A DNA stretch of 64,000 nucleotides from Gammaproteobacteria bacterium (GCA_009844085.1 VYCF01000007.1:1746-65745); one strand, 5' to 3'; shown: positions 45,546 to 64,000, counted from the stretch's first letter. Made by a program: numbers and translations. Notes: a model not told the origin generated them from the sequence alone.

Positions 45546-45569
45546 TTCGGCAAGCTTTAGAGCCTTTGA

Positions 45570-45601
45570 GGAACAGTCCCGCCGTGCGGCGGGACTGTTC
45601 C
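45570..45601 (+). terminator. GC-rich hairpin after receptor copy 1 (no clear T-tract)
   Basis: GGAACAGTCCCGCC-GTGC-GGCGGGACTGTTCC. Its core is homologous to the hairpin after copy 2. Confidence 0.45.
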
Positions 45602-45611
45602 TGAGTCTGGC

Positions 45612-45902: not shown

Positions 45903-46025
45903 CAAGCAGTTTACAGTTTTAAGATTACCCGTCCCGGCATCCCGCCAGACGCCGGTTGCCGGCGTCGGCAGCCGGACCGAGACGGCAAATTCCTGTTAGT
46001 CAGTTATCAAATTCTGGGGAATGCA

Positions 46026-48350
46026 ATGAACATCAAGTGCAAGATTCCGGCAATACAACGGAAGAAATTACCAGCCGCCATCGGTTTGGCGCTGGCGGTC
46101 GGCTGTGCCGGCGGCGCGTTCGCGCAAGAAAGTGCCGGCCAAAATGAAGATCGAATTACAGAAATCGTAGTCACCTCGCTGTTCCAGGAATCGGAGGCGG
46201 AAACGGCAATGCCGGTTGGCGTTCTCGCCGGAGATGCGTTGCGGGAGCATATCGGCAACAGTCTCGGCGATACGCTCAAGAACGAAATCGGCGTTGCGAG
46301 CGCCTCGTTCGGCACTGGGGTCGGACTTCCGGTGATCCGCGGTCAGTCCGCCAACCGCGTCAAGGTCCTGCAAAACGGCGTCGGCGTTACCGATGTTTCC
46401 AATGCCAGTCCCGACCATGCCAATGCCGTGAACGTGGCGCTGGCGGAACGGCTGGAAGTCATTCGCGGGCCGTCGACCCTGCTGTATGGCAGCAGCGCTA
46501 TCGGCGGCGTCGTCAACGTCATCGACAACCGGATTCCGGAAAGTCTGCCGGAAGACATGGGCTTCGTAGTCCAGCAAATGCACAATACCGTGAATTCCCA
46601 GGACGAAACCCTGATCCACATCGATGGTGCGGTGGGCAACGTGGCTTTTCATCTCGATGCTTACCGGAGCCGCAACGAAAATGTGGAGATCGGCGGCTAC
46701 GCCATGGACGAGGAAGCCATGGAGGCCCTTGAGGAACTGTTTCACGAACACTTCGAAGAAGGGCATCACGACGACGACCACGACGACCACGACGACCACG
46801 ACGACCACGATGATCATGACCATCATGACGACCATGACGAGCGCGAAGGACCAGAAAACACCTTCGGCTACATCGGCAATTCCGATGGCGAGTCTAGCGG
46901 CGGCAGTTTCGGCTTTTCCTTCATTGGCGACAACGGCTTTTTCGGTGTTTCCGCAAGCGAGGTCGAAAAGAACTACGGTCTCCCGCTCGGCGTCCATGCC
47001 CATGTCCATGACCATGGCGAAGAGGAGCATGAAGGGGAGCACGACGAGCACGAGCACGAGGACGAACACGATCACGAGGAAGATGACCACGAGGACGAAC
47101 ACGGCCATGGGGGGGAAGCGGTTGAATTCGTTCGCCTCGACATGAAAAAGAGCCGCTACGATTTCAAGAGCGAATATCGGTTCGACAACGGCTTCATCGA
47201 GAGCGTGCGCGCCACGATGGGCATCACCGATTACGTTCACGACGAGATCGAGTTCTTCGAAGACGGCGACACCCATGTGGGCACCCGCTATAGTAACGAA
47301 GGCAACGAGGGCCGCATAACCTTGACTCATGCCCCCGTGGGCAACTGGACCGGAGTCTGGGGCATGCAGTTCGCGGATACCGTCTTCAGCGCCATCGGCG
47401 AAGAAGCCTTCGTTCCGCAATCCGACCTCAACTCCATCGGTCTTTTCGCGGTCGAGCGCTATAGCGCGGGCAACTGGACCGGCGAAGTCGGCATTCACAT
47501 GGAAGACAACAGGGTCGATCCCAATGGCCGCTGCGAGTTCAACACCAACGCCACGAGCCTGAGCGGCATGGTGCTGTACGATGTGGGCGATGACGCCAAT
47601 CTGTTGTTCGGCGCCGCCCGGTCCCAAAGGGCGCCGGCGGTTGAAGAACTCTATTCCAACGTTTCCGAGCTAACTTGCGCGCCCGAGGACGACTATGAAA
47701 ATCTCGTCTTCCACGCCGGCACGAACACGCTGGATATCGGTAATCCGCTGCTTGAAGCGGAGACTTCCAACAACCTGGAGTTCGGCTATCGTCGACATGG
47801 CGGCAGCTTCACCGGCGAGTTCAACGCCTATTACAATCAGATCGACGACTACATTTTTCTCGATCTGACGGGGGAGTTTGAAGAACAGACTCTCGCCCGG
47901 TATCTGCAGCGGGATGCGCGCTTTACCGGCATCGAAGGCGAGGTTTTCTTCAATGTCATGGAAGGCGGGGATTCGTCCCTGTCGCTCGGCGTGTTCGGCG
48001 ATATGGTGAATGCCGAATTCGATACCGGCGGCTATGTCCCGCGCATCCCGGCATCAAGGCTCGGCGCCGAACTGCGCTGGTCCGGAAATGACTGGAGCGT
48101 CAATCTGCGCGCCACTCGGGTAAACGAGCAGGAAGACGTGGCCGAACTCGAGTTGCCCACCGACGGATACACCCTGCTTTCTCTCTATGCCGACTATCGT
48201 ATCGACGTAGGCGAGGACAGCAGCCTCGAGGTGTTCCTGCGCGGAGAAAATCTGCTCGATGAGGAAATCCGCAATCACGTGTCCCTGTTAAAGAACTACG
48301 CGCCCGAGCCGGGCCGCGGCGTGATTGCTGGAGTTCGTTTCGAATATTGA
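46026..48350 (+). CDS. TonB-dependent receptor with two His/Asp/Glu-rich inserts (ZnuD-like), copy 2
   Basis: Paralog of 43242-45545, sharing long identical blocks. Inserts HEHFEEGHHDDDHDDHDDHDDHDDHDHHDDHDE and HAHVHDHGEEEHEGEHDEHEHEDEHDHEEDDHEDEHGHG. Confidence 0.9.
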   Translation: MNIKCKIPAIQRKKLPAAIGLALAVGCAGGAFAQESAGQNEDRITEIVVTSLFQESEAETAMPVGVLAGDALREHIGNSLGDTLKNEIGVASASFGTGVGLPVIRGQSANRVKVLQNGVGVTDVSNASPDHANAVNVALAERLEVIRGPSTLLYGSSAIGGVVNVIDNRIPESLPEDMGFVVQQMHNTVNSQDETLIHIDGAVGNVAFHLDAYRSRNENVEIGGYAMDEEAMEALEELFHEHFEEGHHDDDHDDHDDHDDHDDHDHHDDHDEREGPENTFGYIGNSDGESSGGSFGFSFIGDNGFFGVSASEVEKNYGLPLGVHAHVHDHGEEEHEGEHDEHEHEDEHDHEEDDHEDEHGHGGEAVEFVRLDMKKSRYDFKSEYRFDNGFIESVRATMGITDYVHDEIEFFEDGDTHVGTRYSNEGNEGRITLTHAPVGNWTGVWGMQFADTVFSAIGEEAFVPQSDLNSIGLFAVERYSAGNWTGEVGIHMEDNRVDPNGRCEFNTNATSLSGMVLYDVGDDANLLFGAARSQRAPAVEELYSNVSELTCAPEDDYENLVFHAGTNTLDIGNPLLEAETSNNLEFGYRRHGGSFTGEFNAYYNQIDDYIFLDLTGEFEEQTLARYLQRDARFTGIEGEVFFNVMEGGDSSLSLGVFGDMVNAEFDTGGYVPRIPASRLGAELRWSGNDWSVNLRATRVNEQEDVAELELPTDGYTLLSLYADYRIDVGEDSSLEVFLRGENLLDEEIRNHVSLLKNYAPEPGRGVIAGVRFEY

Positions 48351-48386
48351 TCCCGTCCAAGCCCATGGACGGCTCAGCGGTATGAG

Positions 48387-48420
48387 AAAAGTCCCGCTTG
48401 ACGGCGGGACTTTTCATTTG
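48387..48420 (+). terminator. Rho-independent terminator after receptor copy 2
   Basis: AAAAGTCCCGC-TTGACG-GCGGGACTTTT followed by CATTT. Confidence 0.65.
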
Positions 48421-48434
48421 GGCTTGAGGCCAAA

Positions 48435-49304
48435 ATGCAGTATGTTTCCCCCGACATGATTTCTCTGTTCGCGCTCAAGATCATCGCCGCGCTTTCGATT
48501 CTCGCGGTGGGTATTCTCGGCGGCATCATTCCCCTGCTGGCCGCGCGGCTGCGGGCAAGCCAGCGGTTCTTTTCCCTCGGCAATGCCCTGGCCGGGGGAA
48601 TATTCCTCGGCGTCGGCTTTACTCATCTGCTGCCCGAAGCCGGGGAAATGCTCGCCGAATTTACCGATTATCCACTGGCTCCGCTATTGGCCGCGGCGGG
48701 GATTGCGATTCTATTATGGATCGACCGGGTCTATTTCGAGTCGATGGGGCCCGCGGAAGGGGAAGAATCCGGCGAACAGCGGCGGCCCCTGTATCCCATG
48801 ATCATGCTCGCCGCGCTGTCGATTCATTCGGTCATCACCGGAATCGCCCTCGGCCTGGAGCCGGAAGTAGCCGCTTCGCTGCTGGTAATGACGGGAATTC
48901 TGGCGCACAAGGGTTCGGCTTCCTTCGCGCTGATGGTCAGCGCCCACGCCGCCGGCCTGAATGCTCCCAATCTGCGCCTGATCCTCGCTGTATTCGTGCT
49001 GATGACTCCGCTCGGAATCCTGTTCGGCACGACGGTGTCCAGCCTGATGCAAGGGGAAAGCGCCGAACTCGTGGAAGGCGTTTTCAATGCCCTGGCCGCG
49101 GGAACTTTCATCTATATCGCCATCATGGACGTGATCGGCGGAGAGATGGGGCGCATCGAAGACCGCATGGCGCGTTTCGTCAGCAGCGCGCTGGTGGGAA
49201 GCGACGATGTCGACATGCCGGTTCGGGACCGCGACCGCCCGCTCAAGTTCCTGCTCGTTCTGATCGGCCTCGGCAGCATGGCGGTACTGGGAATTTGGGT
49301 CTAG
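48435..49304 (+). CDS. ZIP-family divalent-metal (zinc) transporter
   Basis: Eight TM helices. ZIP signature helices (SIHSVITGIALG, ILAHKGSASFAL). Confidence 0.8.
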   Translation: MQYVSPDMISLFALKIIAALSILAVGILGGIIPLLAARLRASQRFFSLGNALAGGIFLGVGFTHLLPEAGEMLAEFTDYPLAPLLAAAGIAILLWIDRVYFESMGPAEGEESGEQRRPLYPMIMLAALSIHSVITGIALGLEPEVAASLLVMTGILAHKGSASFALMVSAHAAGLNAPNLRLILAVFVLMTPLGILFGTTVSSLMQGESAELVEGVFNALAAGTFIYIAIMDVIGGEMGRIEDRMARFVSSALVGSDDVDMPVRDRDRPLKFLLVLIGLGSMAVLGIWV

Positions 49305-53367: not shown

Positions 53368-53487
53368 CAATGCTCCACAAGCCGGTGCGAATGCTCGCAC
53401 AAGTCCTTGTCGACTGGCAATTTCGGAATATGTCGATATAATTCGATTTTGTCGACACGTTTCGGCGAAATGTCGATGGCATCGACA
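53368..53487. promoter_or_regulatory. Repeat-rich intergenic region: phased TGTCGA(C/T) motifs and a terminal palindrome
   Basis: TGTCGAC 53408-53414, TGTCGAT 53431-53437, TGTCGAC 53450-53456. TGTCGAT-GGC-ATCGACA 53471-53487 is a perfect inverted repeat. Spacings are 23, 19 and 21 nt. AATGCTC(C/G)CACAAG occurs twice at about 53369 and 53390. Confidence 0.45.
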
Positions 53488-53528: not shown

Positions 53529-54620
53529 ATGGCCCGATCTTTCGACCTAAGTCGTCCGTACAACGAATTGCCGGACCTGCCGCCCGCCGCGGAAACCGAA
53601 ACGAAGGCAATTCTCAAGAGTTGCATTGCGGCGCGCGCGGCGCTGGCGGAGCTCCGGGCGTCCGGGAAACTCATCCCGAACCAGGCCATGTTGATCAACT
53701 CGATCCCGCTGCTTGAAGCCCAGGCGAGTTCCGAGATCGAAAACATCGTCACGACTGCGGATCGACTGTTCCGCCATGCCAACGATGCGACGGGCCGGGC
53801 GGACCCCGCCACCAAAGAGGCGCTGCGCTATCGCACCGCCCTCAACCGCGGCTTCGAGATGCTGAAAAGGAGGCCGGTTGCGACTGCCATGGCTGTCGAG
53901 GTGTGCAGAACGATCAAGGGTGTGGATCTGGATATTCGCAAAGTGCCGGGCACGGCCTTGCTCAATGATGCAACCAACAAACTGATTTACACGCCGCCCG
54001 TCGGTGAGGACGTGATTCGAATCAAATTGGCCAATTGGGAGCGCTATATTCACGAGGCCGAGAAAATCGACCCCTTGATCCGGCTCGCGGTCATGCACTA
54101 TCAATTCGAGGCGATCCACCCGTTCGTGGATGGAAACGGTCGAACCGGGCGGGTGTTGAACCTGCTTTTCCTGGTCGACAAGGGGCTGCTTGATATTCCC
54201 GTCCTCTACCTAAGTCGATACATCATCGGGAACAAGGCGCTCTACTATCGGCATCTTCTCGCGGTGACGACCGAACAGGATTGGGAAACGTGGATTCTGT
54301 TCATGCTAGAGGCCGTCAAGACAACAGCCGAATGGACCACGGCGAAGATTCAGGCAATCCGCGAGCTTCTGGACGAGACAGCCTCGGAGATTCGGAGGAA
54401 ACTGCCGAAAATCTATTCCCGTGAACTGGTGGAACTGATCTTCGTGAATCCCTATTGCCGGGTAAACGATGTGGTCAAGGCCGGCATCGGGCGGCGTCAA
54501 ACGGCCGCTGTCTATCTGAATGCCCTGGCGGCCGAGGACATTCTGGAGAAAGTAAAGGCGGGACGCGAAAACCTTTACATCAACCCGCCGCTGTTGGCGC
54601 TCTTGTCAGAGCGCACCTGA
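53529..54620 (+). CDS. Fic-family protein (class II, N-terminal inhibitory helix, C-terminal wHTH-like domain)
   Basis: Fic active-site motif HPFVDGNGRTGR. The inhibitory motif [ST]xxxE[GN] is present as SSEIEN upstream. Length is 363 aa. Confidence 0.9.
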   Translation: MARSFDLSRPYNELPDLPPAAETETKAILKSCIAARAALAELRASGKLIPNQAMLINSIPLLEAQASSEIENIVTTADRLFRHANDATGRADPATKEALRYRTALNRGFEMLKRRPVATAMAVEVCRTIKGVDLDIRKVPGTALLNDATNKLIYTPPVGEDVIRIKLANWERYIHEAEKIDPLIRLAVMHYQFEAIHPFVDGNGRTGRVLNLLFLVDKGLLDIPVLYLSRYIIGNKALYYRHLLAVTTEQDWETWILFMLEAVKTTAEWTTAKIQAIRELLDETASEIRRKLPKIYSRELVELIFVNPYCRVNDVVKAGIGRRQTAAVYLNALAAEDILEKVKAGRENLYINPPLLALLSERT

Positions 54621-54728: not shown

Positions 54729-57700
54729 ATGATCGCAGGATCTCGTCGTCTTCCAGTTAGGCACCTCTCCATTCGTGTGCCGTGGCACGACGCGGGCTGG
54801 GCGGGAAGCGTCTGCGATAAGCCGTCGGCCAATACGTCATGTCGGGTATTGCCGAGAATCGCTGAGAGCAAGGACGATGCCGCGGAAGAGTGCGTCAAGA
54901 GTCGCTCCTTTGCAGATCTGCCACCTAGTGACCTCCCGCCATGCTTAGCCGAGCGTGCGAGCTTCATGGCGCCATTTCCGATTACGCTCCGCAAGACGCA
55001 TCCTTACACTAAACGCAACCCGGAATCTCACGGACACTTCCTCCCCACACGCTACACAATGCGCCCGTACACTGCCGCCTGTGTACCCTTTCGTTGGATG
55101 CTGATCGAGGAAAGCGCGGAGTTGGTGAATTTATACGACTTGGGTTACCAGCCAGATCGCGAACCTGATCTTGGGTTCGGAACTGACTGGATTCAAGATC
55201 GTTCAAACCAACTGGTAATGCTCGATACTTTTTTTGGGGCGGTTCGCCCTGAGGAATCGCTCTGTTTCTTCTACGCTAAGGACACGCCCCTGTCGGCATC
55301 GGCTAGGCGGGTGATTGTCGGTGTGGGGCTAGTTCTAACAGTTGATGCCCCTGTCGAATATCAATATTCGATAGAAAATCCTCCGCATCGCAGCGTTCTA
55401 TGGGAACGTAACGTCGAGCACTCCATCCGACCTGGCTTCAAGGAGGGATTTCTGTTTCCATATCGAGAATTGATCGAGATCGCGAATGAGCAGGGACTCG
55501 ACCCACAACAGTTCCTGGCGTTCGCCCCGGACGAAGCGTTTTGGAGCTTTTCCCACGGCTCGGAACACGTCTCGCACGACGAAGCCATCGCATCAGTGCT
55601 GAGTTGCTTGAGGGCACTGGAGCGAATACAGGATGTGCATTCCGGGCCGTGGGGTCGGGCAATGGACTGGCTGGATAGGCAACTCAATCGTTTGTGGCGC
55701 ATGCGTGGCCCCTTTCCGGGATTCGGTTCAGCCCTTGCGGCGTTTCTTGGCGATGGCGGCAATCTTGTTGCGTATGAAATCGCCGAGGAGAGCGCGAAGA
55801 GCAGTTCCGACGGAAACATAGATCCATGGCCAGCGTTCGAACGGATCATACAAGCCCCAGGGACCGCTTCAGATTCGGTCAAGGAACAGATCGGCGAAGG
55901 GTTCGCCCGAGCATGGAGCAGCATGACGGCGCAACGAAAAGAGTTGCTCAGATTGCTCAGCCGGTTCTCGCTGACATCCGATCAGGCGAAACGATTCTTT
56001 AACCGCGATGGCCGACCCGTCAGTCTCGATGATGCCTCGCTGATTGAGAATCCATACCTACTGTACGAACTCGACCGGATGTCGCTAGATTCCATTTCCG
56101 TCATGAACATTGATCGCGGAATGCTGCCTGGCAACGCTGTGCTGAAGGCGCATCCTCTGCCTGAATCCTCGCGGCTCACCGACAAAGTCGACCCGCGCCG
56201 TGTGCGTGCGCTTGTCGTCGCGGCACTTGAGCAAGGCGCTGAACAGGGCCACACGCTGCTGCCTCGCGCTCTGCTGTCAACCTTCATCGACAGTATGCCG
56301 CTAGAGTCAGATTGCCCAATAGGGCCCGTAGTGCTTGCCGGAGTGAGTAACTCACTCGAAGGGGTCGTCGCGACAGCGAAAATGGCGAAAGACACAGTTG
56401 GTTTTCAGCTGCGTCGTTTTGTTGATACGGGCGAAATGATACGTCGCACCGTGAAAAAACGTGTCGGTCCAAAGAGCCAACGCCATCACGGTGGTAACGA
56501 TTTCGAGTCCGCGGTCAATGATTCTCTTGGCGACCTCCCTGAGGATAGCGAAGATGCGGAGATCGAAATTAAAGCGCGTGCCGAAAAGGCCGCGGCGCTC
56601 GAAGAAATATACGCATCAAGGCTATCTGTGCTGGTCGGTGCCGCCGGAACCGGGAAGACAACACTGCTCAAGATGCTCTGTGAACTGGAAGAGGTCGAAG
56701 GAGGCGGCATACTGCTATTGGCACCCACGGGTAAGGCTCGCGTCCAACTCGAAACTAGGACAGGCGTCACAGGAGGGCTAACGATTGCCCAGTTCCTGTC
56801 GCGCTACGGCGACCGATACGATACTTCAACTCACCAGTATTTGGTGACCGGCAGCCCGGATCGTTGTCGGGATTACCGAACCGTGATCGTGGACGAGTGC
56901 TCGATGCTCACCGAAGAGCAGCTCGCAGCTCTGCTGGATGCTCTGAGTGGCGTGGATCGTTTGGTCCTTGTTGGCGACCCGCGCCAGCTGCCGCCCATCG
57001 GAAGCGGTCGACCGTTTGTGGACATCGTGCGGGAACTCGAACCAGAGGAAATCGAGCATCGAATTCTGCAGGTCGACCGCGGCTATGCAAAGCTCACCAT
57101 TCCACGTCGGCAACGCGGAGCGACGCGCGCCGACTTGTTGCTCGCGGGCTGGTTCGGGGGTATCCAGGATCCTGCGGCAGACGAAATCTGGAACCGCCTC
57201 GAAAACGAAGAAATCAACGAAATCAGTTTCGAGTCTTGGAGCGACTGGGAGGATCTTCGAACGAAACTTCTTGAGTTGATCGTCAGGGAACTTGACCTTG
57301 CCAGCTTGGACGACGAAGTGGGCTTTGAATGCAGTCTCGGAGCAACCACGCACAATGGTGGGACCTTCTTCTGGCGTAGCCGCGCTCCGGATGCGCCGAT
57401 AAAGGCCGAGCGCTGGCAAATCCTGTCGCCGGTGCGCGGAGCGGATCATGGAGTGGCAAATCTAAACCGTCTGGTGCAACAGACGTTCCGTAAGTCTTGG
57501 CTATCGAAAGCAATGTCTCATTCGCAATACCGCAAGATTCATCTCCCGGTTGGTCCCCAAGGGATCATTTACGGCGACAAGGTCATCAATCTGAAGAACA
57601 GTGGAGATCGACAAGTATTTCCTAAGCGACTGTCATATGTTGCAAACGGCGATGTTGGCATCGTTGTTGGCAACTACAAGACGAAGAATCAGAAGAAGCT

Positions 57701-58472
57701 GTTTCCGTTCGTGGAAGTCGAGTTTACCTCTCAACCCGGTCATGACTATGACTTCAAGCTTGGGGAGTTCGGTGGCGAAGAAGGAACGCCTCCCTTAGAA
57801 CTTGCTTACGCTCTTACGGTCCACAAGTCGCAGGGCAGCGAGTTTGGGATTACATTCGTCGTGCTGCCCGATCCGTGTTGGCCTCTTTCTCGAGAATTGC
57901 TCTACACCGCATTGACCCGCCAGCAGAACCGGGTCGTCGTTTTGCATCAAGGCGACTTGCGGAATTTGCGCCGCTATGCGAGCGACAAGCACTCGGACAT
58001 CGCCCGCAGGTTGACCAACCTGTTCTCTCCTCCCAATCCAGTCTCGTTCGAGGTCGAAGGTGTCGAGAAATTTCTGGAGGAAGGACTCATCCATCGCACC
58101 AAGCGTGGCGATCTTGTCCGTTCCAAATCCGAGGCAATCATTGCGAACGAACTCCTAGCGCAAGGAGTAGACCGGTACGAATACGAAGCGGCGCTTTCGC
58201 TATCCGACGGGAGAACACGGTATCCAGACTTCACAGTTGTGGATGATGACACGGGAGAGCGTTTCTACTGGGAGCATTTAGGGCTGCTTCATAACCCAGA
58301 ATATGAGGCCCGCTGGAACCGGAAATTGGAAGAATACCGCGCAGCATCTATCCTTCCGCATCAGGAAGGCGGCGGCAAGGCGGGCACATTGATTGTCACC
58401 CGCGACGACGAGCGAGGCGGAATCGACACCCAAGCTATCGCCGACTTGATTCGTGATGTGTTGGTCGGATAA
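54729..58472 (+). CDS. 1247-aa multidomain protein: Cys-rich N-terminal region of unknown function, RecD-like SF1 helicase, C-terminal PD-(D/E)xK-like nuclease domain
   Basis: N-terminus IRVPWHDAGWAGSVCDKPSANTSC. Walker A GAAGTGKTT, Walker B VIVDECSML, LVLVGDPRQLPPIG, ALTVHKSQGSEF, YTALTRQQNRVVVL. The C-terminus reads VRSKSEAIIANELLAQGVDRYEYE...YPDFTVVDD...FYWEHLG. Confidence 0.8.
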   Translation: MIAGSRRLPVRHLSIRVPWHDAGWAGSVCDKPSANTSCRVLPRIAESKDDAAEECVKSRSFADLPPSDLPPCLAERASFMAPFPITLRKTHPYTKRNPESHGHFLPTRYTMRPYTAACVPFRWMLIEESAELVNLYDLGYQPDREPDLGFGTDWIQDRSNQLVMLDTFFGAVRPEESLCFFYAKDTPLSASARRVIVGVGLVLTVDAPVEYQYSIENPPHRSVLWERNVEHSIRPGFKEGFLFPYRELIEIANEQGLDPQQFLAFAPDEAFWSFSHGSEHVSHDEAIASVLSCLRALERIQDVHSGPWGRAMDWLDRQLNRLWRMRGPFPGFGSALAAFLGDGGNLVAYEIAEESAKSSSDGNIDPWPAFERIIQAPGTASDSVKEQIGEGFARAWSSMTAQRKELLRLLSRFSLTSDQAKRFFNRDGRPVSLDDASLIENPYLLYELDRMSLDSISVMNIDRGMLPGNAVLKAHPLPESSRLTDKVDPRRVRALVVAALEQGAEQGHTLLPRALLSTFIDSMPLESDCPIGPVVLAGVSNSLEGVVATAKMAKDTVGFQLRRFVDTGEMIRRTVKKRVGPKSQRHHGGNDFESAVNDSLGDLPEDSEDAEIEIKARAEKAAALEEIYASRLSVLVGAAGTGKTTLLKMLCELEEVEGGGILLLAPTGKARVQLETRTGVTGGLTIAQFLSRYGDRYDTSTHQYLVTGSPDRCRDYRTVIVDECSMLTEEQLAALLDALSGVDRLVLVGDPRQLPPIGSGRPFVDIVRELEPEEIEHRILQVDRGYAKLTIPRRQRGATRADLLLAGWFGGIQDPAADEIWNRLENEEINEISFESWSDWEDLRTKLLELIVRELDLASLDDEVGFECSLGATTHNGGTFFWRSRAPDAPIKAERWQILSPVRGADHGVANLNRLVQQTFRKSWLSKAMSHSQYRKIHLPVGPQGIIYGDKVINLKNSGDRQVFPKRLSYVANGDVGIVVGNYKTKNQKKLFPFVEVEFTSQPGHDYDFKLGEFGGEEGTPPLELAYALTVHKSQGSEFGITFVVLPDPCWPLSRELLYTALTRQQNRVVVLHQGDLRNLRRYASDKHSDIARRLTNLFSPPNPVSFEVEGVEKFLEEGLIHRTKRGDLVRSKSEAIIANELLAQGVDRYEYEAALSLSDGRTRYPDFTVVDDDTGERFYWEHLGLLHNPEYEARWNRKLEEYRAASILPHQEGGGKAGTLIVTRDDERGGIDTQAIADLIRDVLVG

Positions 58473-58523: not shown

Positions 58524-61500
58524 TCAACCGGTGTTTTCGGCTTCGATTACCGCCCGCAAATCGGCAACATGAGTTTCGGTCAAGTACAATGTTACCGATT
58601 CCCCGGCGAGCGTGATGTCCAAGTCGTTTCCGTCCAGAGCGAGAAACCTGCCCTTTACTTCGTCCTTAGAGTTGTTGGCGTGTTTGAACATGGCCGCGTG
58701 ATTGGGGCACAGCGCAAGATAGTTCTGGTGGTGATGTCTCTCCAAGTCCGGGAAAAACTCCACCGCTTCAAAGTAGTAGTTCCCGTCATCGAGTTGAAAA
58801 GGCAGGCTGTCCCGGCACGCCTGACAGATCGTAACTTGATCGGTGTTGGTGTAGAGACTCCGAAGATAAGGTTTGGTCTTCTCCTCCTTGATCTGATCGC
58901 GGTTTTTTGAAATGGAACGTTGACGCATTTCGGTTTCGCGTTTGGGCGCTTGTTTAGCTTCCGCCCGAACCTTATTGGTTCTTCGATCCAGATCAGCGGA
59001 TTCGCGAGTGGGCAGTTCCACAGGCGATTGGAATTGTTCCAAGACTTTTCGTCTAGTTTCTGCCGACAAGGCTGCGAACTGTCGAACATCGTCAAGAGCG
59101 CCTAGGTCGCTAATTCCGAGTTCGGCAGCGATTTCCCGAGTCCTGCGAAGTTTTTCGGCACGCTCTTCAGTTTCAATTCCGAAGTCTATGGCCTTGAGCC
59201 AGTCCCAACCCGGATCGAAAGCGAATCCATCCGGCAGCAGGTCCTTTTGCGCATCTGGGGGGCGAACGAATTCGCCGGCATTTTGGGGGATCCAGGCGGA
59301 ATTTTTCAACTGGTGTACGAGTCGAGAATTAGCAGTATGCTCGTTGTTAGCCAAATTCTTCTTGAAAGTGGCTTTCAAGATGCTTTCGTTGAGATGCAGG
59401 TTGCTGAGCGTATTCCAGACAAGGCGGGAGAGCGCCATGCTCGGGGTTTCAAACATAACGTCGAGGTCGGGAATTACGAAGTCTTCGTCGATCCCGTAAT
59501 CTGTAAATCTCTCTCCCGGTGCGTTATGCAGGTGCTCCCTGTTTGGATTCGCATCGCAATTTACGGTGGCGATTTCGAGCCGGTCGGCCACACCGCAAGA
59601 CTGCGCGAATGGGATAAGCTGCTTCAGAGGGTCGAATTTCTGGTAGTTGGGAGACAACGCAATTCGCTCTGTTTCAATTTCCGGGTGGCCGTAATAGGAA
59701 TCTAATCCAGTTTTGAGATATGGACTGTCGAGATAAAGCAAACCAGGGCAATGCCAACCGCTGTCGGCCCCTTGGAATATGAAATACTTCTCAAAAAGTT
59801 TGATTGCACTTCTGTCTGTATTCGCCAAAGAAGTAAACCGATTCAAGTCGGATTCATGGATTGTCCACGGATGTTCTTGGTCGGAGTTGGCATATCGCTG
59901 CTTGAGGATGGCCTCAATTTGCTCGAATTCTCCGATTTCCTTGACCCCGATGCCTTCTAGGAAAGCTCTGGAATGTTTTTGCTCTGTATCCGTGCCCCCG
60001 CCAGCATAAGTATTTTTAGCAACTCGGGGGTGGATAGGGTCTTCGTGAATTTCCGGTGTAGGAAAATAGCATTCATGGCCTGTTCCGAATTCTCCGTCCG
60101 AGCGCCTGACGATACTGAGATTGTTGAAACGGTATAAATGGTCTCCCAGTTGCCGATGGAGGAAAGCATACAATTTTCGGTGCCACTCCTCTGGTTTCCG
60201 CCTCATCCAGTCGAGGAACGATTGGTCTGGCCCCTGCTTCCAAGTGTGGGTCAGATGACAAAAACCATTCGTCGTGGAGCAACGGTCCTTAAGTGTTTCC
60301 ATAAATTGCTCGACACCCCATTGCCCAACATCGAGATCATGTAGAAAGCGATCCACCCGGCTGTTCCGCTGCGTTGCGGCGACAGCCCAGTCCGGATCTC
60401 CATCGCAGTTATCGACAAGGAAGCGGAGATCATCGCGATCAAGCAAATCCTTCAGGCCAGCTTCTGCTTGTAGCAGTCGGCTGGCTGGCGCGTGGCCAAT
60501 GGCATGCGTTGGGGTAAGCGGTCGCTCGTTCATCGCTTTGACGATGGCAGTGCGTATGGGCTCGTAATTTTCAGGGACATCGTCATTGCTGTTTGGCAGC
60601 ACGGCAAGAAAATCCCGATCAAGCAGGCCGAAGTCACGGACAACTGTGAGTGACTGCGCCGCAAGTCGAGCGATCTGCTCGAAAAGAGGCTCGTTTGCGT
60701 CTGTCTTCTTGATGCTGGAGCGACTGAGTTCAGGGACGAAGGGTGCGTGGATATGGAAACGCATGTTCGAGGTTTCTTTCGCGGCCGTAAAATAGACTGC
60801 GACGCATCCTCGCTCTGCTGGGATGATGCGGAACCGGTTGGTCACGGAGCCGTGTTCAGCATGTCGCTGTTTTTCGGGCCTCGGTTCAAGCTCAAAGGCG
60901 ATGGCAACGTTCTGCCTTTCGAGATCTTCCACCTGTTCGCGGAAACTGAGGAAATGGGAAGTTTCGGTCGATCCACCGTCTATCTCGCGGAGAACTTCCA
61001 AGTGTTGATCGGAATTCGCAACTCTGAGCAAACGAACTTTTTTGTTTCCTTCAACCCGCCAATTGATCTCTTCGATGTTGGAAAGGAACAGCAGGGTTCT
61101 GTCGGAAATTTCCTCAAGACAGTCCCGTACTTCTGAAAAGGCTTGGGTCTTCGGCTTCTTTTCAGAATCGAACGGAAATTCGAATCGAGTGCAGCCGTGG
61201 AGCTTTGGGCAGGAGTGCAGCGCCGACGGGAGAACCATCTCGGAAATTTTGAATGAGTAACTCGGGGACCAGATATGCGGGGTCTCCGTGTATGCAAACA
61301 CAGCCTTGAATCCGATGCCGAAACGGCCGATCTGCTCGTCGTACTCTGCCTTGGTGCCTTCTCCGATATCGGTAATGGCTCGGATATCGGCTTCGTCGAA
61401 CTCGCGGCCGTTATGCTCGAACACAAGCTTATTTTCGGAAAGGCGAAAAGTGGTCTCCGAAGCACCGGTGTCCTCCGCATTCTGGAGCAGTTCGTATATG

Positions 61501-61613
61501 AAATGTGCGGAATCGGGATAGAGGTCCTCGACGATCCTTCGGATGCCGGCATGCTTCTTCAATACTCGGGCAAGATCCTCGCGATCTCGGCGAATGCGTT
61601 CGATAACACTCAC
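58524..61613 (-). CDS. 1029-aa GHKL (sacsin/MORC-like) ATPase with a C-terminal Cys/His HNH-like module
   Basis: GTG start overlapping the upstream TGA (GTGA at 61610-61613). Bergerat N-box ELLQNAEDT, then DIGEGTK, then GRFGIGFKAVF. The C-terminus reads CQAC...HHHQNYLALCPNH. Confidence 0.75.
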   Translation of the reverse strand: MSVIERIRRDREDLARVLKKHAGIRRIVEDLYPDSAHFIYELLQNAEDTGASETTFRLSENKLVFEHNGREFDEADIRAITDIGEGTKAEYDEQIGRFGIGFKAVFAYTETPHIWSPSYSFKISEMVLPSALHSCPKLHGCTRFEFPFDSEKKPKTQAFSEVRDCLEEISDRTLLFLSNIEEINWRVEGNKKVRLLRVANSDQHLEVLREIDGGSTETSHFLSFREQVEDLERQNVAIAFELEPRPEKQRHAEHGSVTNRFRIIPAERGCVAVYFTAAKETSNMRFHIHAPFVPELSRSSIKKTDANEPLFEQIARLAAQSLTVVRDFGLLDRDFLAVLPNSNDDVPENYEPIRTAIVKAMNERPLTPTHAIGHAPASRLLQAEAGLKDLLDRDDLRFLVDNCDGDPDWAVAATQRNSRVDRFLHDLDVGQWGVEQFMETLKDRCSTTNGFCHLTHTWKQGPDQSFLDWMRRKPEEWHRKLYAFLHRQLGDHLYRFNNLSIVRRSDGEFGTGHECYFPTPEIHEDPIHPRVAKNTYAGGGTDTEQKHSRAFLEGIGVKEIGEFEQIEAILKQRYANSDQEHPWTIHESDLNRFTSLANTDRSAIKLFEKYFIFQGADSGWHCPGLLYLDSPYLKTGLDSYYGHPEIETERIALSPNYQKFDPLKQLIPFAQSCGVADRLEIATVNCDANPNREHLHNAPGERFTDYGIDEDFVIPDLDVMFETPSMALSRLVWNTLSNLHLNESILKATFKKNLANNEHTANSRLVHQLKNSAWIPQNAGEFVRPPDAQKDLLPDGFAFDPGWDWLKAIDFGIETEERAEKLRRTREIAAELGISDLGALDDVRQFAALSAETRRKVLEQFQSPVELPTRESADLDRRTNKVRAEAKQAPKRETEMRQRSISKNRDQIKEEKTKPYLRSLYTNTDQVTICQACRDSLPFQLDDGNYYFEAVEFFPDLERHHHQNYLALCPNHAAMFKHANNSKDEVKGRFLALDGNDLDITLAGESVTLYLTETHVADLRAVIEAENTG

Positions 61614-64000
61614 GTCACGTCGTCCCGTGTGATGCGCAGCATGCCTTTGACAACCATGGTGGCGTGAATATCTGCGCTTTCTGACAACCTCTCCAACTCC
61701 GCAACCCGGCTCTCGTATTCGTAGTTGGCGCGCACCAATTCGCTTTGCCTCATACGACGAATCTTATAGTTGATCGCACCGCTGATTTGGTCTTCCAGCA
61801 ATTTGCATCGCGCTCGGTGACTGATTTCCAAACTATGCCGTCTATGTTCAAGGGCTTCCCGGTTGTTCGCAATATGATCCGCGCACGCGGAGCGCCATTC
61901 TCTGTGATGGTGGGTGTCGAGTTGATTCATCTCATCCTCGTCCGGCTGATTTCCGGCAGATACGTCCGCAGCGGTTTCCAGCAGGGTCAGCAAAACACTG
62001 TTCAAATTCGGATTTGGAGTGATGGCCACGAGAATGTCGTCCGACCGAACGCCGACCTTGCGCCAATGGTAGACAGCGAATGGGTATTCGCCTGGGGGGA
62101 CCGCTTCACTTTCGATACTTAGGCTGGCACGCACCACTCCTGAGGATTCCAAGAACCGCGCTGCCTGACGGACTAATGGGTGCAGAACATGCATGTAGAT
62201 GACTTCGGGTTTGTCAGCTGCGGTTTTCTGGTCAAACGTGACTTGCAACATGGGGTCTGCGCCTTTGAGCCACTTTTCCCACTGTCGGGAGACTGGGTCT
62301 ATTGGCCGAGGGTAGTCGTGCAAATCTTCAAGTAGACTCAATCGAATTTCCTTGCTGAGTCGAAGCGTCTTGAGGGCTCCATCACCTAGAAAAAAACTGC
62401 CGTCCATCTTCTTGGACAAGCTCGAAAGATAAGAGACGATACAACTTTGCAATGCATTCGGGGATAGCCAGAAGTTCTCGGCTTCCTCGATTTCCTCACG
62501 CCAGGATTGGTTGGGAACCGAAAGGCCAAACAGTTCCGAATGTTTCTCTTCAAGCGCGATTTCTTCCTGAACTTGGCGTATTTTATTGTCGCCGAGTTGC
62601 TGGAGACGTTCTTTGCGCTGCTCTGAGGTAAGAGTGAAGCTGTCGGCGATGTTATGTATCTCCCGGGTGATTTCTCCGAGAATCTCCTCGCTGCCGCCAA
62701 CGGCGTGATGAAACACGCCGATGCGTAAGAGGCAGCGCTGGTAGATTTCCGCGTCCACCGTGCCGGGTGTCACCAAATTAATGATTGCAACGCTGTCGCT
62801 TTGCTGACCGTAGCGGTCGATGCGGCCGATCCGCTGTTCGATGCGCATAGGGTTCCATGGCAGATCGTAGTTGATCAGCAGATCGCAGAACTGGAAGTCA
62901 AGTCCTTCGCAGCCGACTTCGGAGGACAGCAGAACATCAATCGCCTCCGGGTCATCCTTCGGAAGAGCGAAACGCCGACGCAAAGTTGAACGGTGGTCGT
63001 CAGGAACGCCGCCATGCACAAGGCCGTAGCGGATTCCGGCATCGGAAATGTATCGCTCAACATAAGCAAGTGTGTGGCGGAAGGTGCTGAAGACCAACGC
63101 TTTGTTGTTTTCCATTTGATCCTTGTCCCGCAGAACCTTAATAAATTCCAGCACCTTTGGGTCGAAAGGGTCGAGAGCCTTTGCCTGATCCAGCAATGCC
63201 TCAATATCCGCCTCGATCTCATTGAGGAACGCGGCATCTACGGGGGTCTCTCCATCAGGCCCATCCATGGCCTCAAGGCCGTCAAGTTTCACCGCCAGCA
63301 TGTCGCGCAAGAGGGGGGCGAGGCCGAAAATGCAACTTGCCGCCTGGCGACGTAGTGTGGACATCATGAATTTGACATTCTGCTCGCCGTGGGCATGCGC
63401 CAGAATACGGCTTACCACTTCAAGCAAGCCGTCATGCAATTGGCGCTGGCTCGGAGTGAACTCAGTCGTCAGCGTTTCCGGCTGACGTGTGGTGAAATCT
63501 CCGATGTCCCGGCGGCGCGTACGGTTGATCATCGGGCTGAAGGTATAAAGTTCCTCCAATGTACGGATTATGTGTATGCGGTTGGCATCGTCTATGTTTT
63601 GCTCGGCCATGCGATCATAGACATCTTGAAACGCTGGCGATTCTCGAAGAAACAAGCGCCCCCACTCGGTTCGCGCCGCATCGTCCAAGCATGCGCGGGC
63701 TTCGATGGACCAGCGAACCCCGCCTGTGCGGCAATGGCCGACGGCTGTGTTGATGAATCGGTTGGGCGCAGCCATCTGCTCGAAACTCGGTCGGTCGATG
63801 ATGAGGTCCGGTCGCAGAACATTTAGCAGAGTGAATAGATCTTGGCTTCCAAGTTGCACCGGCGTGGCGGTCAGGAAGACCGCGGCTTGGGAGTTGTCGC
63901 AAAAATACCGCACCGCTTGGTGGAGATAGGTGTCCGCGTTGCGTATATGGTGTGCCTCGTCGACAATCACCAGATCGAACCTTGGAGGTGGGTCGAGAGC
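61610..64000 (-). CDS. SNF2-family (SF2) helicase with a roughly 350-aa C-terminal extension; the N-terminus lies beyond the window
   Basis: The frame stays open to position 64000 (...LDPPPRFDLVIVDEAHHIRN, the DEAH box). FLTATPVQ, helicase-C motifs (LLSSEVGCEGLDFQ, DLPWNPMRIEQRIGRIDRYGQ). Confidence 0.85.
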   Translation of the reverse strand, partial: ALDPPPRFDLVIVDEAHHIRNADTYLHQAVRYFCDNSQAAVFLTATPVQLGSQDLFTLLNVLRPDLIIDRPSFEQMAAPNRFINTAVGHCRTGGVRWSIEARACLDDAARTEWGRLFLRESPAFQDVYDRMAEQNIDDANRIHIIRTLEELYTFSPMINRTRRRDIGDFTTRQPETLTTEFTPSQRQLHDGLLEVVSRILAHAHGEQNVKFMMSTLRRQAASCIFGLAPLLRDMLAVKLDGLEAMDGPDGETPVDAAFLNEIEADIEALLDQAKALDPFDPKVLEFIKVLRDKDQMENNKALVFSTFRHTLAYVERYISDAGIRYGLVHGGVPDDHRSTLRRRFALPKDDPEAIDVLLSSEVGCEGLDFQFCDLLINYDLPWNPMRIEQRIGRIDRYGQQSDSVAIINLVTPGTVDAEIYQRCLLRIGVFHHAVGGSEEILGEITREIHNIADSFTLTSEQRKERLQQLGDNKIRQVQEEIALEEKHSELFGLSVPNQSWREEIEEAENFWLSPNALQSCIVSYLSSLSKKMDGSFFLGDGALKTLRLSKEIRLSLLEDLHDYPRPIDPVSRQWEKWLKGADPMLQVTFDQKTAADKPEVIYMHVLHPLVRQAARFLESSGVVRASLSIESEAVPPGEYPFAVYHWRKVGVRSDDILVAITPNPNLNSVLLTLLETAADVSAGNQPDEDEMNQLDTHHHREWRSACADHIANNREALEHRRHSLEISHRARCKLLEDQISGAINYKIRRMRQSELVRANYEYESRVAELERLSESADIHATMVVKGMLRITRDDVT

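What the first reader, a model, noticed from the sequence alone, without database searches (positions are those of the whole stretch)
54729..58472. 1247-aa helicase-nuclease with an unassigned Cys-rich N-terminal half
One polypeptide combines three parts:

- **N-terminal region (about 600 aa):** it starts with a distinctive IRVPWHD.GW.G.VC..P..N..C motif and contains no catalytic motif I can name.
- **RecD-like SF1 helicase core:** GAAGTGKTT, DECSML, GDPRQLPP, VHKSQGSEF, TALTRQQNRVVVL.
- **C-terminal module (about 150 aa):** the pattern SKSE..IA..L...G..YEYE...YPDF.V.D.....FYWEH fits a PD-(D/E)xK-type nuclease.

Single-chain SF1 helicase-nuclease proteins are known to act as stand-alone anti-phage effectors (Nhi-like proteins). 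In those the nuclease is usually arranged differently, and this N-terminal domain is not part of what I know of them. The N-terminal half could be a sensor domain.
Basis: partly seen in the sequence, partly recalled or inferred. Interest (0 to 1): 0.7.

Follow-up and report, generated by a model that had tools for sequence, protein, structure and literature searches.

The report
Untested RecD-type helicase-nuclease defence candidate (PDC-S68)
This 1247-residue protein joins an orphan N-terminal domain, a RecD2-type DNA motor and a restriction-endonuclease-fold domain; it sits in a phage-defence island and belongs to a widespread family already listed as the untested defence candidate PDC-S68.

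Summary
The ORF (54729-58472, +, 1247 aa) and every quoted motif are real.

- **Family:** it matches the PADLOC model PDC-S68 end to end (1509 bits). PDC systems are 145 untested "phage defence candidates", and no paper in the library mentions PDC-S68.
- **Helicase:** the core is an intact RecD2-like SF1B helicase, but it scores below the RecD and RecD2 family cut-offs.
- **C-terminus (about aa 1122-1247):** it models confidently as a restriction-endonuclease fold. Best structural matches are Bax1, the R2 endonuclease, Can2 and Hjc. E1135, D1167, E1182 and H1183 are family-invariant, but the canonical Lys is Leu.
- **N-terminal half:** only about aa 1-282 is truly unassigned. Residues about 300-610 are a RecD2-like helical, HhH and winged-helix region. 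The orphan domain models at pLDDT about 90, yet matches nothing in Pfam, NCBIfam, PDB sequences or Foldseek PDB. It has three invariant Cys, not four, and is not notably Cys-rich.
- **Context:** the gene lies in a low-GC island between SoFic and a sacsin-HATPase/SNF2 pair. Across 81 loci the recurrent neighbours are all defence genes, with SNF2 helicase the commonest (22 of 81). No partner is universal, and SoFic is adjacent only here.

Most likely this is an autonomous ATP-driven helicase-nuclease defence effector. Its function is unproven.

The parts
54729..58472 (+). Whole gene: 1247-aa PDC-S68-family helicase-nuclease. It is identical to NCBI MYA68433.1, named 'MAG: AAA family ATPase [Gammaproteobacteria bacterium]'.
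   Evidence: ORF and translation. PADLOC PDLC05065 PDC-S68 scores 1509.6 bits, covering protein aa 9-1244 and profile positions 4-1218 of 1221. Identity look-up.
54729..55574 (+). Orphan N-terminal alpha/beta domain, aa 1-282. Family-invariant residues: R16, W19, D21, C29, N35, C38, C72, E75, H91, W123, W154, Q161, S177, Y182, K184, W225, H231, E279.
   Evidence: AF2 model has mean pLDDT 90 and pTM 0.88. No Pfam hit, no NCBIfam hit and no PDB sequence hit. Foldseek PDB returned no match at E<=1e-3. Among PADLOC models it matches only PDC-S68. Conservation.
54771..54842 (+). Signature motif IRVPWHDxGWxGxVCxxPxxNxxC, aa 15-38.
   Evidence: R16, W19, D21, C29, N35 and C38 are present in every one of 68 diverse homologues that keeps its N-terminus. 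H20 is present in 54 of 61.
55575..56558 (+). All-helical region, aa 283-610. It contains a RecD2-like N-terminal / HhH segment and a winged helix at about aa 513-580.
   Evidence: Secondary structure. The TIGR01448 RecD2 alignment starts at aa 485. There is a weak HHH_RecD2 hit at aa 485-509. Foldseek matches winged helix 2co5 (prob 0.99) and RecD2 3gpl (prob 0.99). The BFVD top hit is a 'RecD2 DNA helicase-like helix-hairpin-helix domain' protein, E 2.7e-4.
56580..57038 (+). Helicase domain 1A, aa 618-770: Walker A G637-T645, motif Ia LAPTGKAR, motif II D722/E723, motif III GDPRQLPP.
   Evidence: Pfam AAA_30 2.6e-29 and AAA_19 6.8e-22. PDB RecD2 3e1s 8.6e-26. The motif residues are >=93% conserved in 68 diverse homologues.
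57507..57683 (+). RecD-type SH3-like insertion, aa 927-985.
   Evidence: Pfam SH3_13 E 2.4e-4, below the curated cut-off. D950, K951, N973 and G974 are conserved.
57801..57941 (+). Helicase domain 2A C-terminal motifs, aa 1025-1071: VHKSQGSEF and TALTRQ.
   Evidence: Pfam UvrD_C_2 8.3e-13. H1032, Q1035, G1036, S1037 and T1060-R1064 are invariant.
58092..58469 (+). C-terminal restriction-endonuclease-fold domain, aa 1122-1247. Candidate active site: K1133, E1135, E1153, D1167, E1182, H1183, K1199.
   Evidence: AF2 pLDDT is about 90-97 over the core. The leading recurrent Foldseek PDB matches are REase-fold nucleases: Bax1 6p4w_B at E 5.6e-4 and prob 0.99, R2 endonuclease 8gh6, Can2, Card1, DrdV, Hjc. 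Invariance. Weak PADLOC hits to HEAT_CxxC_PD-DEXK and PDC-S69.
53529..54620 (+). Upstream neighbour, a SoFic-type Fic protein (363 aa). It is a separate defence gene, not a conserved partner.
   Evidence: PADLOC SoFic 3.5e-117. Pfam Fic_N, Fic and SoFic-like_C. No SoFic homologue is found in the 80 other loci.
58524..61613 (-). Convergent downstream neighbour: sacsin-like HATPase protein (1029 aa), TmtA/Tiamat-like.
   Evidence: Pfam SACS 5.3e-19. PADLOC TmtA 4.1e-54.
61610..64000 (-). SNF2 helicase (DrmD-like) overlapping the sacsin gene's start. The gene runs off the window end.
   Evidence: PADLOC DrmD 3.7e-84. The reading frame is open to base 64000. It is 70% identical to residues 415-1198 of a 1199-aa HEPN_Swt1-SNF2 protein in the same arrangement in locus L002.

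Best explanation
The gene encodes a self-contained, ATP-driven helicase-nuclease that most likely acts as an anti-phage or anti-mobile-DNA effector. It is a member of the PADLOC candidate family PDC-S68.

**Shown by sequence and models**
- An intact RecD2-type SF1B motor with all ATPase and translocation motifs.
- A RecD2-like helical, HhH and winged-helix DNA-binding region in front of the motor.
- An Hjc/Bax1-like restriction-endonuclease-fold domain behind it, with invariant E1135, D1167, E1182 and H1183.
- A family-specific 280-aa alpha/beta domain at the N-terminus, with many invariant polar residues and three invariant Cys.

**Inferred mechanism**
1. The motor loads on a DNA end or ssDNA region and translocates 5'->3', as RecD2 does.
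2. The C-terminal nuclease degrades the DNA it is fed.
3. The N-terminal domain holds the enzyme inactive, or directs it, until it meets a foreign-DNA feature or a phage factor. That domain is possibly stabilised by a Cys3(+His) metal site.

No obligatory partner gene exists. The family does have a marked habit of sitting next to SNF2-helicase and methyltransferase modules.
For: **Family membership:** full-length match to PDC-S68. PDCs are candidates derived from genes embedded in BREX, DISARM and type I R-M systems.

**Motor**
- Pfam AAA_30 and UvrD_C_2.
- RecD2 is the best solved relative.
- Motif residues are invariant in 68 diverse homologues.

**Nuclease:** REase-fold matches and conserved acidic residues.

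**N-terminal domain**
- High-confidence model.
- Among the best 150 of the 1467 representative matches, it sits at the N-terminus of proteins of about 1240 aa or of shorter partial sequences, with few exceptions.

**Island context in the window**
- GC drops from 0.61 to 0.53.
- SoFic lies upstream and a sacsin/SNF2 pair downstream.

**Context elsewhere**
- In 81 loci, nine of the ten largest neighbour clusters are defence-type; the tenth (537 aa) matched nothing. They are SNF2 (22 loci), type IIG/ISP methylase (8), sacsin/TmtA (7, plus 4 of a larger form), DRT1a (6), type III methylase (5), UvrD-PDDEXK (4), type I methylase (4) and PDC-S01 (3).
- At least 40 of 81 loci carry one of these clusters.
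- Neighbours in the other 41 loci hit 161 further PADLOC models, including DrmA, DrmC, DrmMI, PglZ, HEC-06 and PD-T4-4.

**Distribution**
- Patchy: at least 558 loci across many phyla.
- 24 plasmid records. One B. cereus megaplasmid copy lies between an integrase and DISARM. A Bartonella plasmid copy lies beside a type I R-M system.

**Analogy, from the literature:** single-chain helicase-nucleases such as Hna are validated defence proteins in which ATPase and nuclease activities are partitioned and a phage SSB triggers the nuclease (PMC13381803). Hachiman works in a similar way (PMC12278908).
Against: - No experiment exists for any PDC-S68 member. The source paper calls the PDCs untested, and no paper mentions PDC-S68.
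- Guilt by association is the only functional evidence.
- The canonical (D/E)xK lysine is Leu1184, so nuclease competence depends on a relocated Lys (K1133 or K1199) or on H1183.
- Foldseek E-values for the C-terminal domain are modest (best 5.6e-4).
- Translocation polarity, substrate and trigger are inferred from RecD2 and from other systems.
- My neighbour analysis used crude ORF calling.
Confidence: 0.6

Rival explanations
1. It is not autonomous. It works as an accessory or effector of SNF2-helicase-centred multi-gene systems (DISARM-like, split type ISP-like, sacsin-SNF2). For example, it might degrade DNA that those systems mark or remodel, and rely on their methyltransferase for self/non-self discrimination.
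For: - An SNF2 helicase lies within +-4 genes in 22 of 81 loci. It is usually on the same strand and directly adjacent, or separated by one module partner.
- In L001 the two genes overlap.
- The window triad (S68, sacsin, SNF2) recurs in L002/L024.
- The B. cereus copy abuts DISARM.
- PDCs were defined by being embedded in BREX, DISARM or R-M systems.
Against: - 59 of 81 loci have no SNF2 nearby.
- The SNF2 partners differ (sacsin, type IIG methylase, unknown proteins), and order and orientation vary.
- The Vibrio IncC plasmid copy has no annotated defence partner.
- The protein already contains a motor, DNA-binding domains and a nuclease.
Confidence: 0.15
2. It is a modification-dependent (type IV-like) restriction enzyme. 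The N-terminal domain would be a divergent PUA/EVE-like reader of modified bases that licenses the helicase-nuclease.
For: - The segment NQLVMLDTFF...LCFFYAK...RVIVGVG (aa 160-200) resembles the helix-strand-strand core of EVE domains.
- hhalign against a THYN1 EVE profile aligns exactly this segment, aa 123-204.
- Many invariant aromatic residues (W19, W24, W123, W154, Y182, W225) could form a base-binding cage.
- A weak Foldseek hit to 2p5d (E 0.48). From memory I believe 2p5d is an EVE-family protein.
Against: - The hhalign result is not significant: probability 0.8%, P 0.07.
- No YTH, EVE, ASCH or SRA structure appears among the top 50 Foldseek hits, although the model is confident and many such structures are in the PDB.
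- Pfam EVE did not match any of 22 family members, even at E<=10.
- AF2 predicts a helix where the EVE first strand would align.
- The EVE profile I built was shallow, using vertebrate THYN1 only.
Confidence: 0.12
3. It serves the mobile elements that carry it rather than host immunity. Possible roles are plasmid or ICE replication, recombination, conjugative DNA processing or inter-element competition, as a TraA/TraI-like or RecD2/AddAB-like helicase-nuclease.
For: - The helicase core gives sub-threshold hits to Ti-type TraA and TraI relaxase-helicases and to RecD/RecD2.
- Copies lie on plasmids and beside integrases or ArdC.
Against: - There is no relaxase domain, and all such scores are far below cut-offs (77.8 vs 590 for TraA; 191.5 vs 500 for RecD2).
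- Neighbours are defence genes, not type IV secretion or replication genes.
- 22 of 24 plasmid records are typed non-mobilizable.
- Distribution is patchy rather than core.
Confidence: 0.08

Closest known systems
PADLOC PDC-S68, a single-gene 'phage defence candidate' (naming scheme of Payne et al., bioRxiv 10.1101/2024.01.29.577857)
   Same: End-to-end profile match: 1509.6 bits, protein aa 9-1244 against profile positions 4-1218 of 1221. The N-terminal, middle and C-terminal thirds each match on their own. This is the family the protein belongs to.
   Different: None in architecture. The family is only a bioinformatic candidate. The paper states that the 145 PDCs are untested. I could not see the S68 row in the truncated supplement.
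RecD2 (Deinococcus radiodurans, PDB 3e1s/3gpl) and the RecD subunit of RecBCD
   Same: SF1B helicase core with the same motifs, an SH3-like insertion and an HhH/helical N-terminal region. RecD2 is the best solved-structure relative (8.6e-26; TIGR01448 2.1e-56; Foldseek 3gpl).
   Different: - It scores far below the equivalog cut-offs: 191.5 vs 500, and 134.5 vs 310.
- It has an extra 280-aa orphan N-terminal domain and a C-terminal REase-fold nuclease that RecD2 and RecD lack.
- It sits in islands and on plasmids and is not a core gene.
Hna, a single-protein helicase-nuclease abortive-infection system (PMC13381803)
   Same: One polypeptide combines an ATPase/helicase and a nuclease. It is a plausible working model: ATP-dependent autoinhibition relieved by a phage factor.
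   Different: From my own knowledge, not tested here, Hna is built on a superfamily-2 helicase with a different nuclease arrangement. It was not among the 23 PADLOC families matching at E<=1; I do not know whether that release contains an Hna model. There is no shared N-terminal domain.
Nhi/AbiO (nuclease-helicase immunity) and Hhe (helicase + Vsr-like endonuclease)
   Same: Single-chain SF1 helicase plus nuclease defence proteins. Hhe also carries its REase-fold nuclease C-terminal to the helicase (my own knowledge).
   Different: The PADLOC Nhi and AbiO models hit only the P-loop (13.9 and 10.6 bits). No Hhe model matched at E<=1. From my own knowledge, those helicases are Upf1/DNA2-like (AAA_11/AAA_12), not RecD-like. 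The N-terminal domains are unrelated.
Bax1, Hjc and the R2 endonuclease-like domain (restriction-endonuclease fold)
   Same: Best structural matches of the C-terminal domain. From my own knowledge of Hjc, the sequence pattern helix-E...PD...E(x) in strand 3 parallels Hjc's E...D...ExK.
   Different: Sequence identity is only 12-19%. The canonical Lys is replaced by Leu1184, with invariant H1183, K1133 and K1199 nearby. No Pfam or NCBIfam model covers the domain.

Membership tests
PADLOC PDC-S68 | Full-length match to the family HMM | tested here: met
   PDLC05065 scores 1509.6 bits and E=0, covering aa 9-1244 against profile positions 4-1218 of 1221. The sister models PDLC05066 and PDLC05064 also match full length.
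PADLOC PDC-S68 | Demonstrated anti-phage activity | not testable with these tools
   The source paper calls the PDCs 'untested'. There is no literature on PDC-S68.
SF1B RecD-like helicases | Walker A, motif II (DE), motif III (GDxxQLPP), and motifs V and VI conserved | tested here: met
   Motifs located and >=93% conserved in 68 diverse homologues. Pfam AAA_30 and UvrD_C_2 are above cut-off.
RecD2 / RecD equivalogs (TIGR01448, TIGR01447) | Score above the curated whole-protein cut-off | tested here: not met
   191.5 vs 500 bits for RecD2 and 134.5 vs 310 bits for RecD.
PD-(D/E)xK (restriction-endonuclease fold) nucleases | alpha-beta-beta-beta-alpha-beta core fold | tested here: met
   The AF2 model shows helix, three strands, helix, strand. 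The leading recurrent Foldseek matches are REase-fold nucleases with prob up to 0.99 and best E 5.6e-4.
PD-(D/E)xK (restriction-endonuclease fold) nucleases | Catalytic D ... (D/E)xK motif | tested here: inconclusive
   P1166-D1167 and E1182 are invariant, but the 'K' position is Leu1184. H1183, K1133 and K1199 are invariant and could substitute.
Nhi / AbiO | Match to the family HMM beyond the P-loop | tested here: not met
   Nhi gives 13.9 bits (E 0.0039) and AbiO 10.6 bits, both only over aa 626-753.
Conjugative relaxase-helicases (TraA_Ti, TraI) | Relaxase domain plus a score above cut-off | tested here: not met
   Only the helicase core aligns: 77.8 vs 590 bits and 22.5 vs 2212 bits. There is no relaxase Pfam hit.
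EVE / PUA-like modified-base readers (for the N-terminal domain) | Significant profile or structural match to the EVE, YTH or ASCH fold | tested here: not met
   Pfam gave no EVE hit in 22 members at E<=10. hhalign against a THYN1 EVE profile gave prob 0.8% and P 0.07. No PUA-like structure appears among the top Foldseek hits except the weak 2p5d. The test is of limited power: the EVE profile was shallow and the model could not be cropped.

The most novel reading that the evidence does not exclude
The first about 280 residues are a previously undescribed fold. The domain would be metal-stabilised (Cys29/Cys38/Cys72 plus a His), and among the homologues I could inspect it is found essentially only in this family. 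It would act as the trigger or sensor, or as a second catalytic site, that gates a RecD2-type motor feeding an Hjc-like nuclease. That would make PDC-S68 a mechanistically new single-protein immune enzyme, possibly cooperating with neighbouring SNF2/methylase modules.
Probability: 0.3. Interest if true: 0.6.

Novelty: new member of a known kind. Interest (0 to 1): 0.4.

Why it matters
- **Scale:** the family is large. There are 1467 clusters at 50% identity, and at least 558 loci across the one-genome-per-species collection, spanning many phyla plus Bacillus cereus, Rhizobium and Vibrio plasmids. Public annotation still calls it only 'AAA family ATPase'.
- **If it is an immune effector:** it would add a RecD2-type motor to the set of single-chain helicase-nuclease defences.
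- **The orphan domain:** its N-terminal domain is confidently modelled, packed with invariant polar and aromatic residues, and has no relative in Pfam, NCBIfam or PDB. It is a clear target for finding out what such enzymes sense.
- **Limit on novelty:** the family is already in PADLOC as a candidate, so the value lies in characterisation, not discovery.

Tried and rejected
1. **Sequence searches of the terminal domains.**
   - Pfam on aa 1-480 and 1079-1247 at E<=10 gave nothing credible.
   - NCBIfam on aa 1-300, 301-615 and 1079-1247 gave nothing.
   - Pfam on 22 family members gave nothing.
   - PDB sequence and profile searches gave only noise: PfEMP1 at E 0.11 and 2'-5' ligase at E 0.28.
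2. **Foldseek of the 615-aa N-terminal model.** Against PDB and BFVD only the winged-helix and RecD2-HhH parts matched.
3. **EVE/PUA hypothesis.** I retrieved THYN1 EVE proteins and ran hhalign. The result was not significant. No EVE proteins were found in the fetched loci to deepen the profile. The THYN1 search returned only vertebrate sequences at >=79% identity, so this test is weak.
4. **Fic partnership.** Rejected: SoFic is adjacent only in the window.
5. **His-Me-finger (HNH-like) reading of WHD...N...** Considered and not adopted. The model shows one strand plus an isolated bridge, not a hairpin-helix unit, and no supporting hit exists.
6. **Cys4 cluster.** Rejected, because C118 is mostly Ala in the family.
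7. **PDB 9kwf as a possible characterised relative.** It comes from a paper on acidophile helicases as DNA-unwinding motors for nanopore sensing and is not relevant.
8. **Literature.** Searches for PDC-S68, and for RecD-like helicase plus anti-phage, found nothing on this family.
9. **Promoter and terminator scan around the gene.** Not above shuffled expectation.

Full report
**1.

The + strand carries one uninterrupted ORF, 54729..58472, of 1247 aa. The N-terminus agrees residue for residue with the consensus of homologues, so the start is correct.

Pfam recognises only the SF1 helicase core: AAA_30 at aa 618-770, UvrD_C_2 at aa 1025-1071, and a sub-threshold RecD-type SH3 at aa 927-985. The best solved relative by sequence is Deinococcus RecD2 (3e1s, 8.6e-26), followed by E. 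coli RecD.

The protein is identical to NCBI MYA68433.1, 'MAG: AAA family ATPase [Gammaproteobacteria bacterium]'.

Two details need correcting.
- The N-terminal half is not notably Cys-rich: 8 Cys in 600 residues.
- Only three Cys (C29, C38, C72) are invariant. C118 is Ala in most of the wider family.

**2. It belongs to a catalogued but untested family**

Against PADLOC-DB the protein matches model PDLC05065, 'PDC-S68', end to end. The score is 1509.6 bits, covering protein aa 9-1244 and profile positions 4-1218 of 1221. The N-terminal, middle and C-terminal pieces each match only PDC-S68 models.

'PDC' stands for 'phage defence candidate'. It denotes 145 single- and multi-gene candidates derived from genes embedded in BREX, DISARM and type I R-M systems and added to PADLOC. 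The authors explicitly describe them as untested. No paper in the library mentions PDC-S68. NCBIfam (June 2026) has no model for either terminal domain.

The family is large.
- 2302 proteins match at E<=1e-10 among the scored candidates, mostly full length at about 1245 aa.
- The first 480 residues alone find 1467 cluster representatives at 50% identity.
- At least 558 loci occur across the one-genome-per-species collection. They span Pseudomonadota, Acidobacteriota, Gemmatimonadota, Myxococcota, Chloroflexota, Planctomycetota, Bacillota and Actinomycetota, plus one Methanobacterium MAG.

**3. Anatomy**

*(a) Residues 1-282.* This is an alpha/beta domain. AlphaFold2 with a 36-sequence alignment gives mean pLDDT 90 and pTM 0.88 for aa 1-615. 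The domain has no match in:
- Pfam;
- NCBIfam;
- PDB sequences or profiles;
- Foldseek PDB, which returned no match at E<=1e-3.

In 68 diverse full-length homologues, down to about 33% identity, a dense set of polar and aromatic residues is invariant: R16, W19, D21, C29, N35, C38, C72, E75, H91, W123, W154, Q161, S177, Y182, K184, W225, H231 and E279. That pattern looks like a ligand-binding or catalytic site plus a Cys3(+His) metal site. This is inference, because I had no access to the model coordinates.

Among the best 150 representative matches, the domain sits at the N-terminus of proteins of about 1240 aa or of shorter partial sequences, with a few longer or offset exceptions. So it is not a promiscuous module.

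*(b) Residues about 283-610.* This region is all-helical.
- The RecD2 equivalog model aligns from aa 485.
- Foldseek finds winged-helix proteins and RecD2 itself with probability 0.99.
- The best BFVD hit is a 'RecD2 helicase-like helix-hairpin-helix domain' protein, E 2.7e-4.

*(c) Residues 618-1072.* This is the SF1B motor, with all motif residues conserved.

*(d) Residues about 1122-1247.* The AF2 model has pLDDT 90-97 over the core. The topology is helix, three strands, helix, strand. The leading, recurrent Foldseek PDB matches are restriction-endonuclease-fold nucleases:
- Bax1 (6p4w_B, E 5.6e-4, prob 0.99);
- the R2 retrotransposon endonuclease;
- Can2 and Card1;
- DrdV;
- Hjc.

Invariant residues fall where the fold's catalytic residues are expected: E1135 in helix 1 (SKSE), P1166-D1167 at strand 2, and E1182-H1183 in strand 3. 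The canonical Lys of (D/E)xK is Leu1184. K1133 and K1199 are invariant and could substitute.

**4. Context**

In the window, GC falls from about 0.61 to about 0.53 from 53 kb onward. Upstream of that point are ordinary genes: two TonB-dependent receptors, a ZIP transporter, a metallo-beta-lactamase-fold protein and a flavin monooxygenase. The low-GC stretch holds four genes:
- SoFic (PADLOC 3.5e-117);
- the target;
- on the opposite strand, a sacsin-like HATPase (TmtA-like, 4.1e-54);
- a DrmD-like SNF2 helicase (3.7e-84) that runs off the window end.

I fetched 80 loci from other genomes. I called ORFs crudely and clustered the +-4 neighbours. Nine of the ten largest neighbour clusters are defence-type; the tenth, a 537-aa protein, matched nothing:

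| Neighbour cluster | Loci (of 81) |
|---|---|
| SNF2 helicase | 22 |
| Type IIG/ISP-like methylase | 8 |
| Sacsin/TmtA-like | 7, plus 4 of a larger form |
| DRT1a reverse transcriptase | 6 |
| Type III methylase | 5 |
| UvrD-PDDEXK | 4 |
| Type I methylase | 4 |
| PDC-S01 | 3 |

At least 40 of 81 loci carry one of these clusters. Neighbours in the remaining 41 loci hit another 161 PADLOC models at E<=1e-10, including DrmA, DrmC, DrmMI, PglZ, HEC-06 and PD-T4-4.

No neighbour is universal. SoFic is adjacent only in the window.

In cultured strains the gene lies on plasmids (24 records).
- In B. cereus megaplasmids it sits between an integrase and a DISARM operon.
- On a 23-kb Bartonella plasmid it sits beside a type I R-M system with an embedded DUF4868 gene.
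- On a Vibrio fluvialis IncC plasmid it has no annotated defence partner.
- It is essentially absent from phage genomes.

This is the signature of an accessory, horizontally moving defence-island gene, not a housekeeping or conjugation gene.

**5. Mechanism**

*Shown:* the protein has an intact ATPase/translocase of the RecD2 type, RecD2-like DNA-binding domains, a conserved REase-fold domain and a conserved orphan domain.

*Inferred:* it loads on ssDNA or DNA ends and moves 5'->3' as RecD2 does. The C-terminal nuclease degrades the substrate. The N-terminal domain restrains or targets this activity until a foreign cue appears.

The nearest worked-out analogies are two systems.
- **Hna:** ATPase and nuclease activities are kinetically partitioned, and a phage SSB releases an autoinhibited dimer (PMC13381803).
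- **Hachiman:** a helicase restrains a nuclease until DNA damage is sensed (PMC12278908).

I put about 0.6 on 'autonomous helicase-nuclease defence effector'. Confidence in any specific trigger is much lower.

**6. Rivals**

*(i) Accessory of SNF2-centred systems.* The SNF2 association is striking: 27% of loci, usually same strand and adjacent, with overlapping genes in L001. But the partner modules differ, their order varies, and 59 of 81 loci lack SNF2.

*(ii) Type IV-like restriction through a PUA/EVE-like N-domain.* The helix-strand-strand segment at aa 160-200 looks EVE-like, and hhalign aligns exactly that segment to THYN1. The result is not significant, however (probability 0.8%, P 0.07). 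Foldseek shows no YTH, EVE or ASCH hits and Pfam EVE never matches.

*(iii) Mobile-element DNA processing or repair.* Only the helicase core resembles TraA, TraI or RecD, all far below cut-offs. There is no relaxase domain, and the neighbours are not transfer or replication genes.

**7. Comparison and novelty**

*Membership:*
- It is a PDC-S68 member.
- It is an SF1B RecD-like helicase, but not a RecD or RecD2 equivalog.
- Its C-terminus has the PD-(D/E)xK fold with a non-canonical motif.
- It is not Nhi or AbiO, which hit the P-loop only.
- It is not a relaxase.

*What it works like:* single-chain helicase-nuclease defences (Hna, Nhi, Hhe).

*What is particular:* the RecD2-type motor, the Hjc/Bax1-like C-terminal domain with Leu at the Lys position, and above all the orphan N-terminal domain.

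The family is already catalogued as a candidate. I therefore rate this protein a new member of a known (candidate) kind, with interest 0.4. It is a good target for experiments rather than a discovery. The most novel reading not excluded is that the N-terminal domain is a new metal-stabilised fold serving as the sensor or gate of a new single-protein immune enzyme (probability about 0.3).

**8. Limits**
- There are no experimental data.
- The N-domain could not be searched alone by structure.
- The EVE profile was shallow.
- Neighbour analysis relied on simple ORF calling and on 80 of at least 558 loci.
- The PDC-S68 row of the source table was not visible in the truncated supplement.

Noticed in passing
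window 58524-64000 (- strand); also L002 13954-20630: A two-gene module with overlapping stop and start: a sacsin-like HATPase (1029 aa, partial TmtA/Tiamat match) plus an SNF2 helicase. In the Arenicellales MAG locus the SNF2 protein is 1199 aa with an N-terminal HEPN_Swt1 domain and is 70% identical to the window's copy. SNF2 helicases paired with a sacsin-like protein recur next to PDC-S68 in several other loci (L046, L048, L068, L076, L079). This may be a distinct, undescribed two-gene defence system.
   Followed up: partly
window 53529-54620 (+): A complete SoFic-type Fic protein (PADLOC SoFic 3.5e-117; Pfam Fic_N, Fic, SoFic-like_C) lies 108 bp upstream of the target. A sigma-70-like promoter match (10 of 12) lies at 53414-53442. 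SoFic is not found beside PDC-S68 in any of 80 other loci.
   Followed up: yes
window about 53000: GC content steps down from about 0.61 to 0.53-0.56 and stays low to the window end. This marks the left edge of a horizontally acquired island. No tRNA or integrase was seen at the edge; the only tRNA is at 7020-7095. The right edge lies beyond the window.
   Followed up: partly
L031 and L047 (L020, L061 and L078 are related): A recurring same-strand array: SNF2 helicase, then a type IIG/ISP-like methylase (with Type_ISP_C and a Peptidase_S24 tail), then (DRT1a reverse transcriptase), then PDC-S68. It looks like a split type ISP-like restriction system with defence genes appended or embedded.
   Followed up: no
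L001 10001-18289; L073, L077: In a 3.7-Mb genome PDC-S68 overlaps the start of an SNF2 helicase gene, which is followed by a 473-537-aa protein with no Pfam or PADLOC match. That protein recurs in three loci. It may be a conserved SNF2 partner of unknown function.
   Followed up: no
L028 (Methanobacterium sp. MAG contig, 4.5 kb): A 44%-identical homologue sits on a short contig binned as an archaeon. This is either cross-domain transfer or a binning artefact.
   Followed up: no
window 43242-49304: Two tandem TonB-dependent receptor genes (767 and 774 aa) are followed by a ZIP-family metal transporter. This is an ordinary metal-uptake cluster just outside the island.
   Followed up: no
L003/L004/L015 (Deltaproteobacteria MAG): PDC-S68 sits directly after an MmeI-like type IIG enzyme. 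The wider row contains an SNF2 helicase, an LRAT-domain protein and two dynamin-like GTPases, followed by ArdC and an integrase. This is a dense defence region on an apparent integrative element.
   Followed up: no
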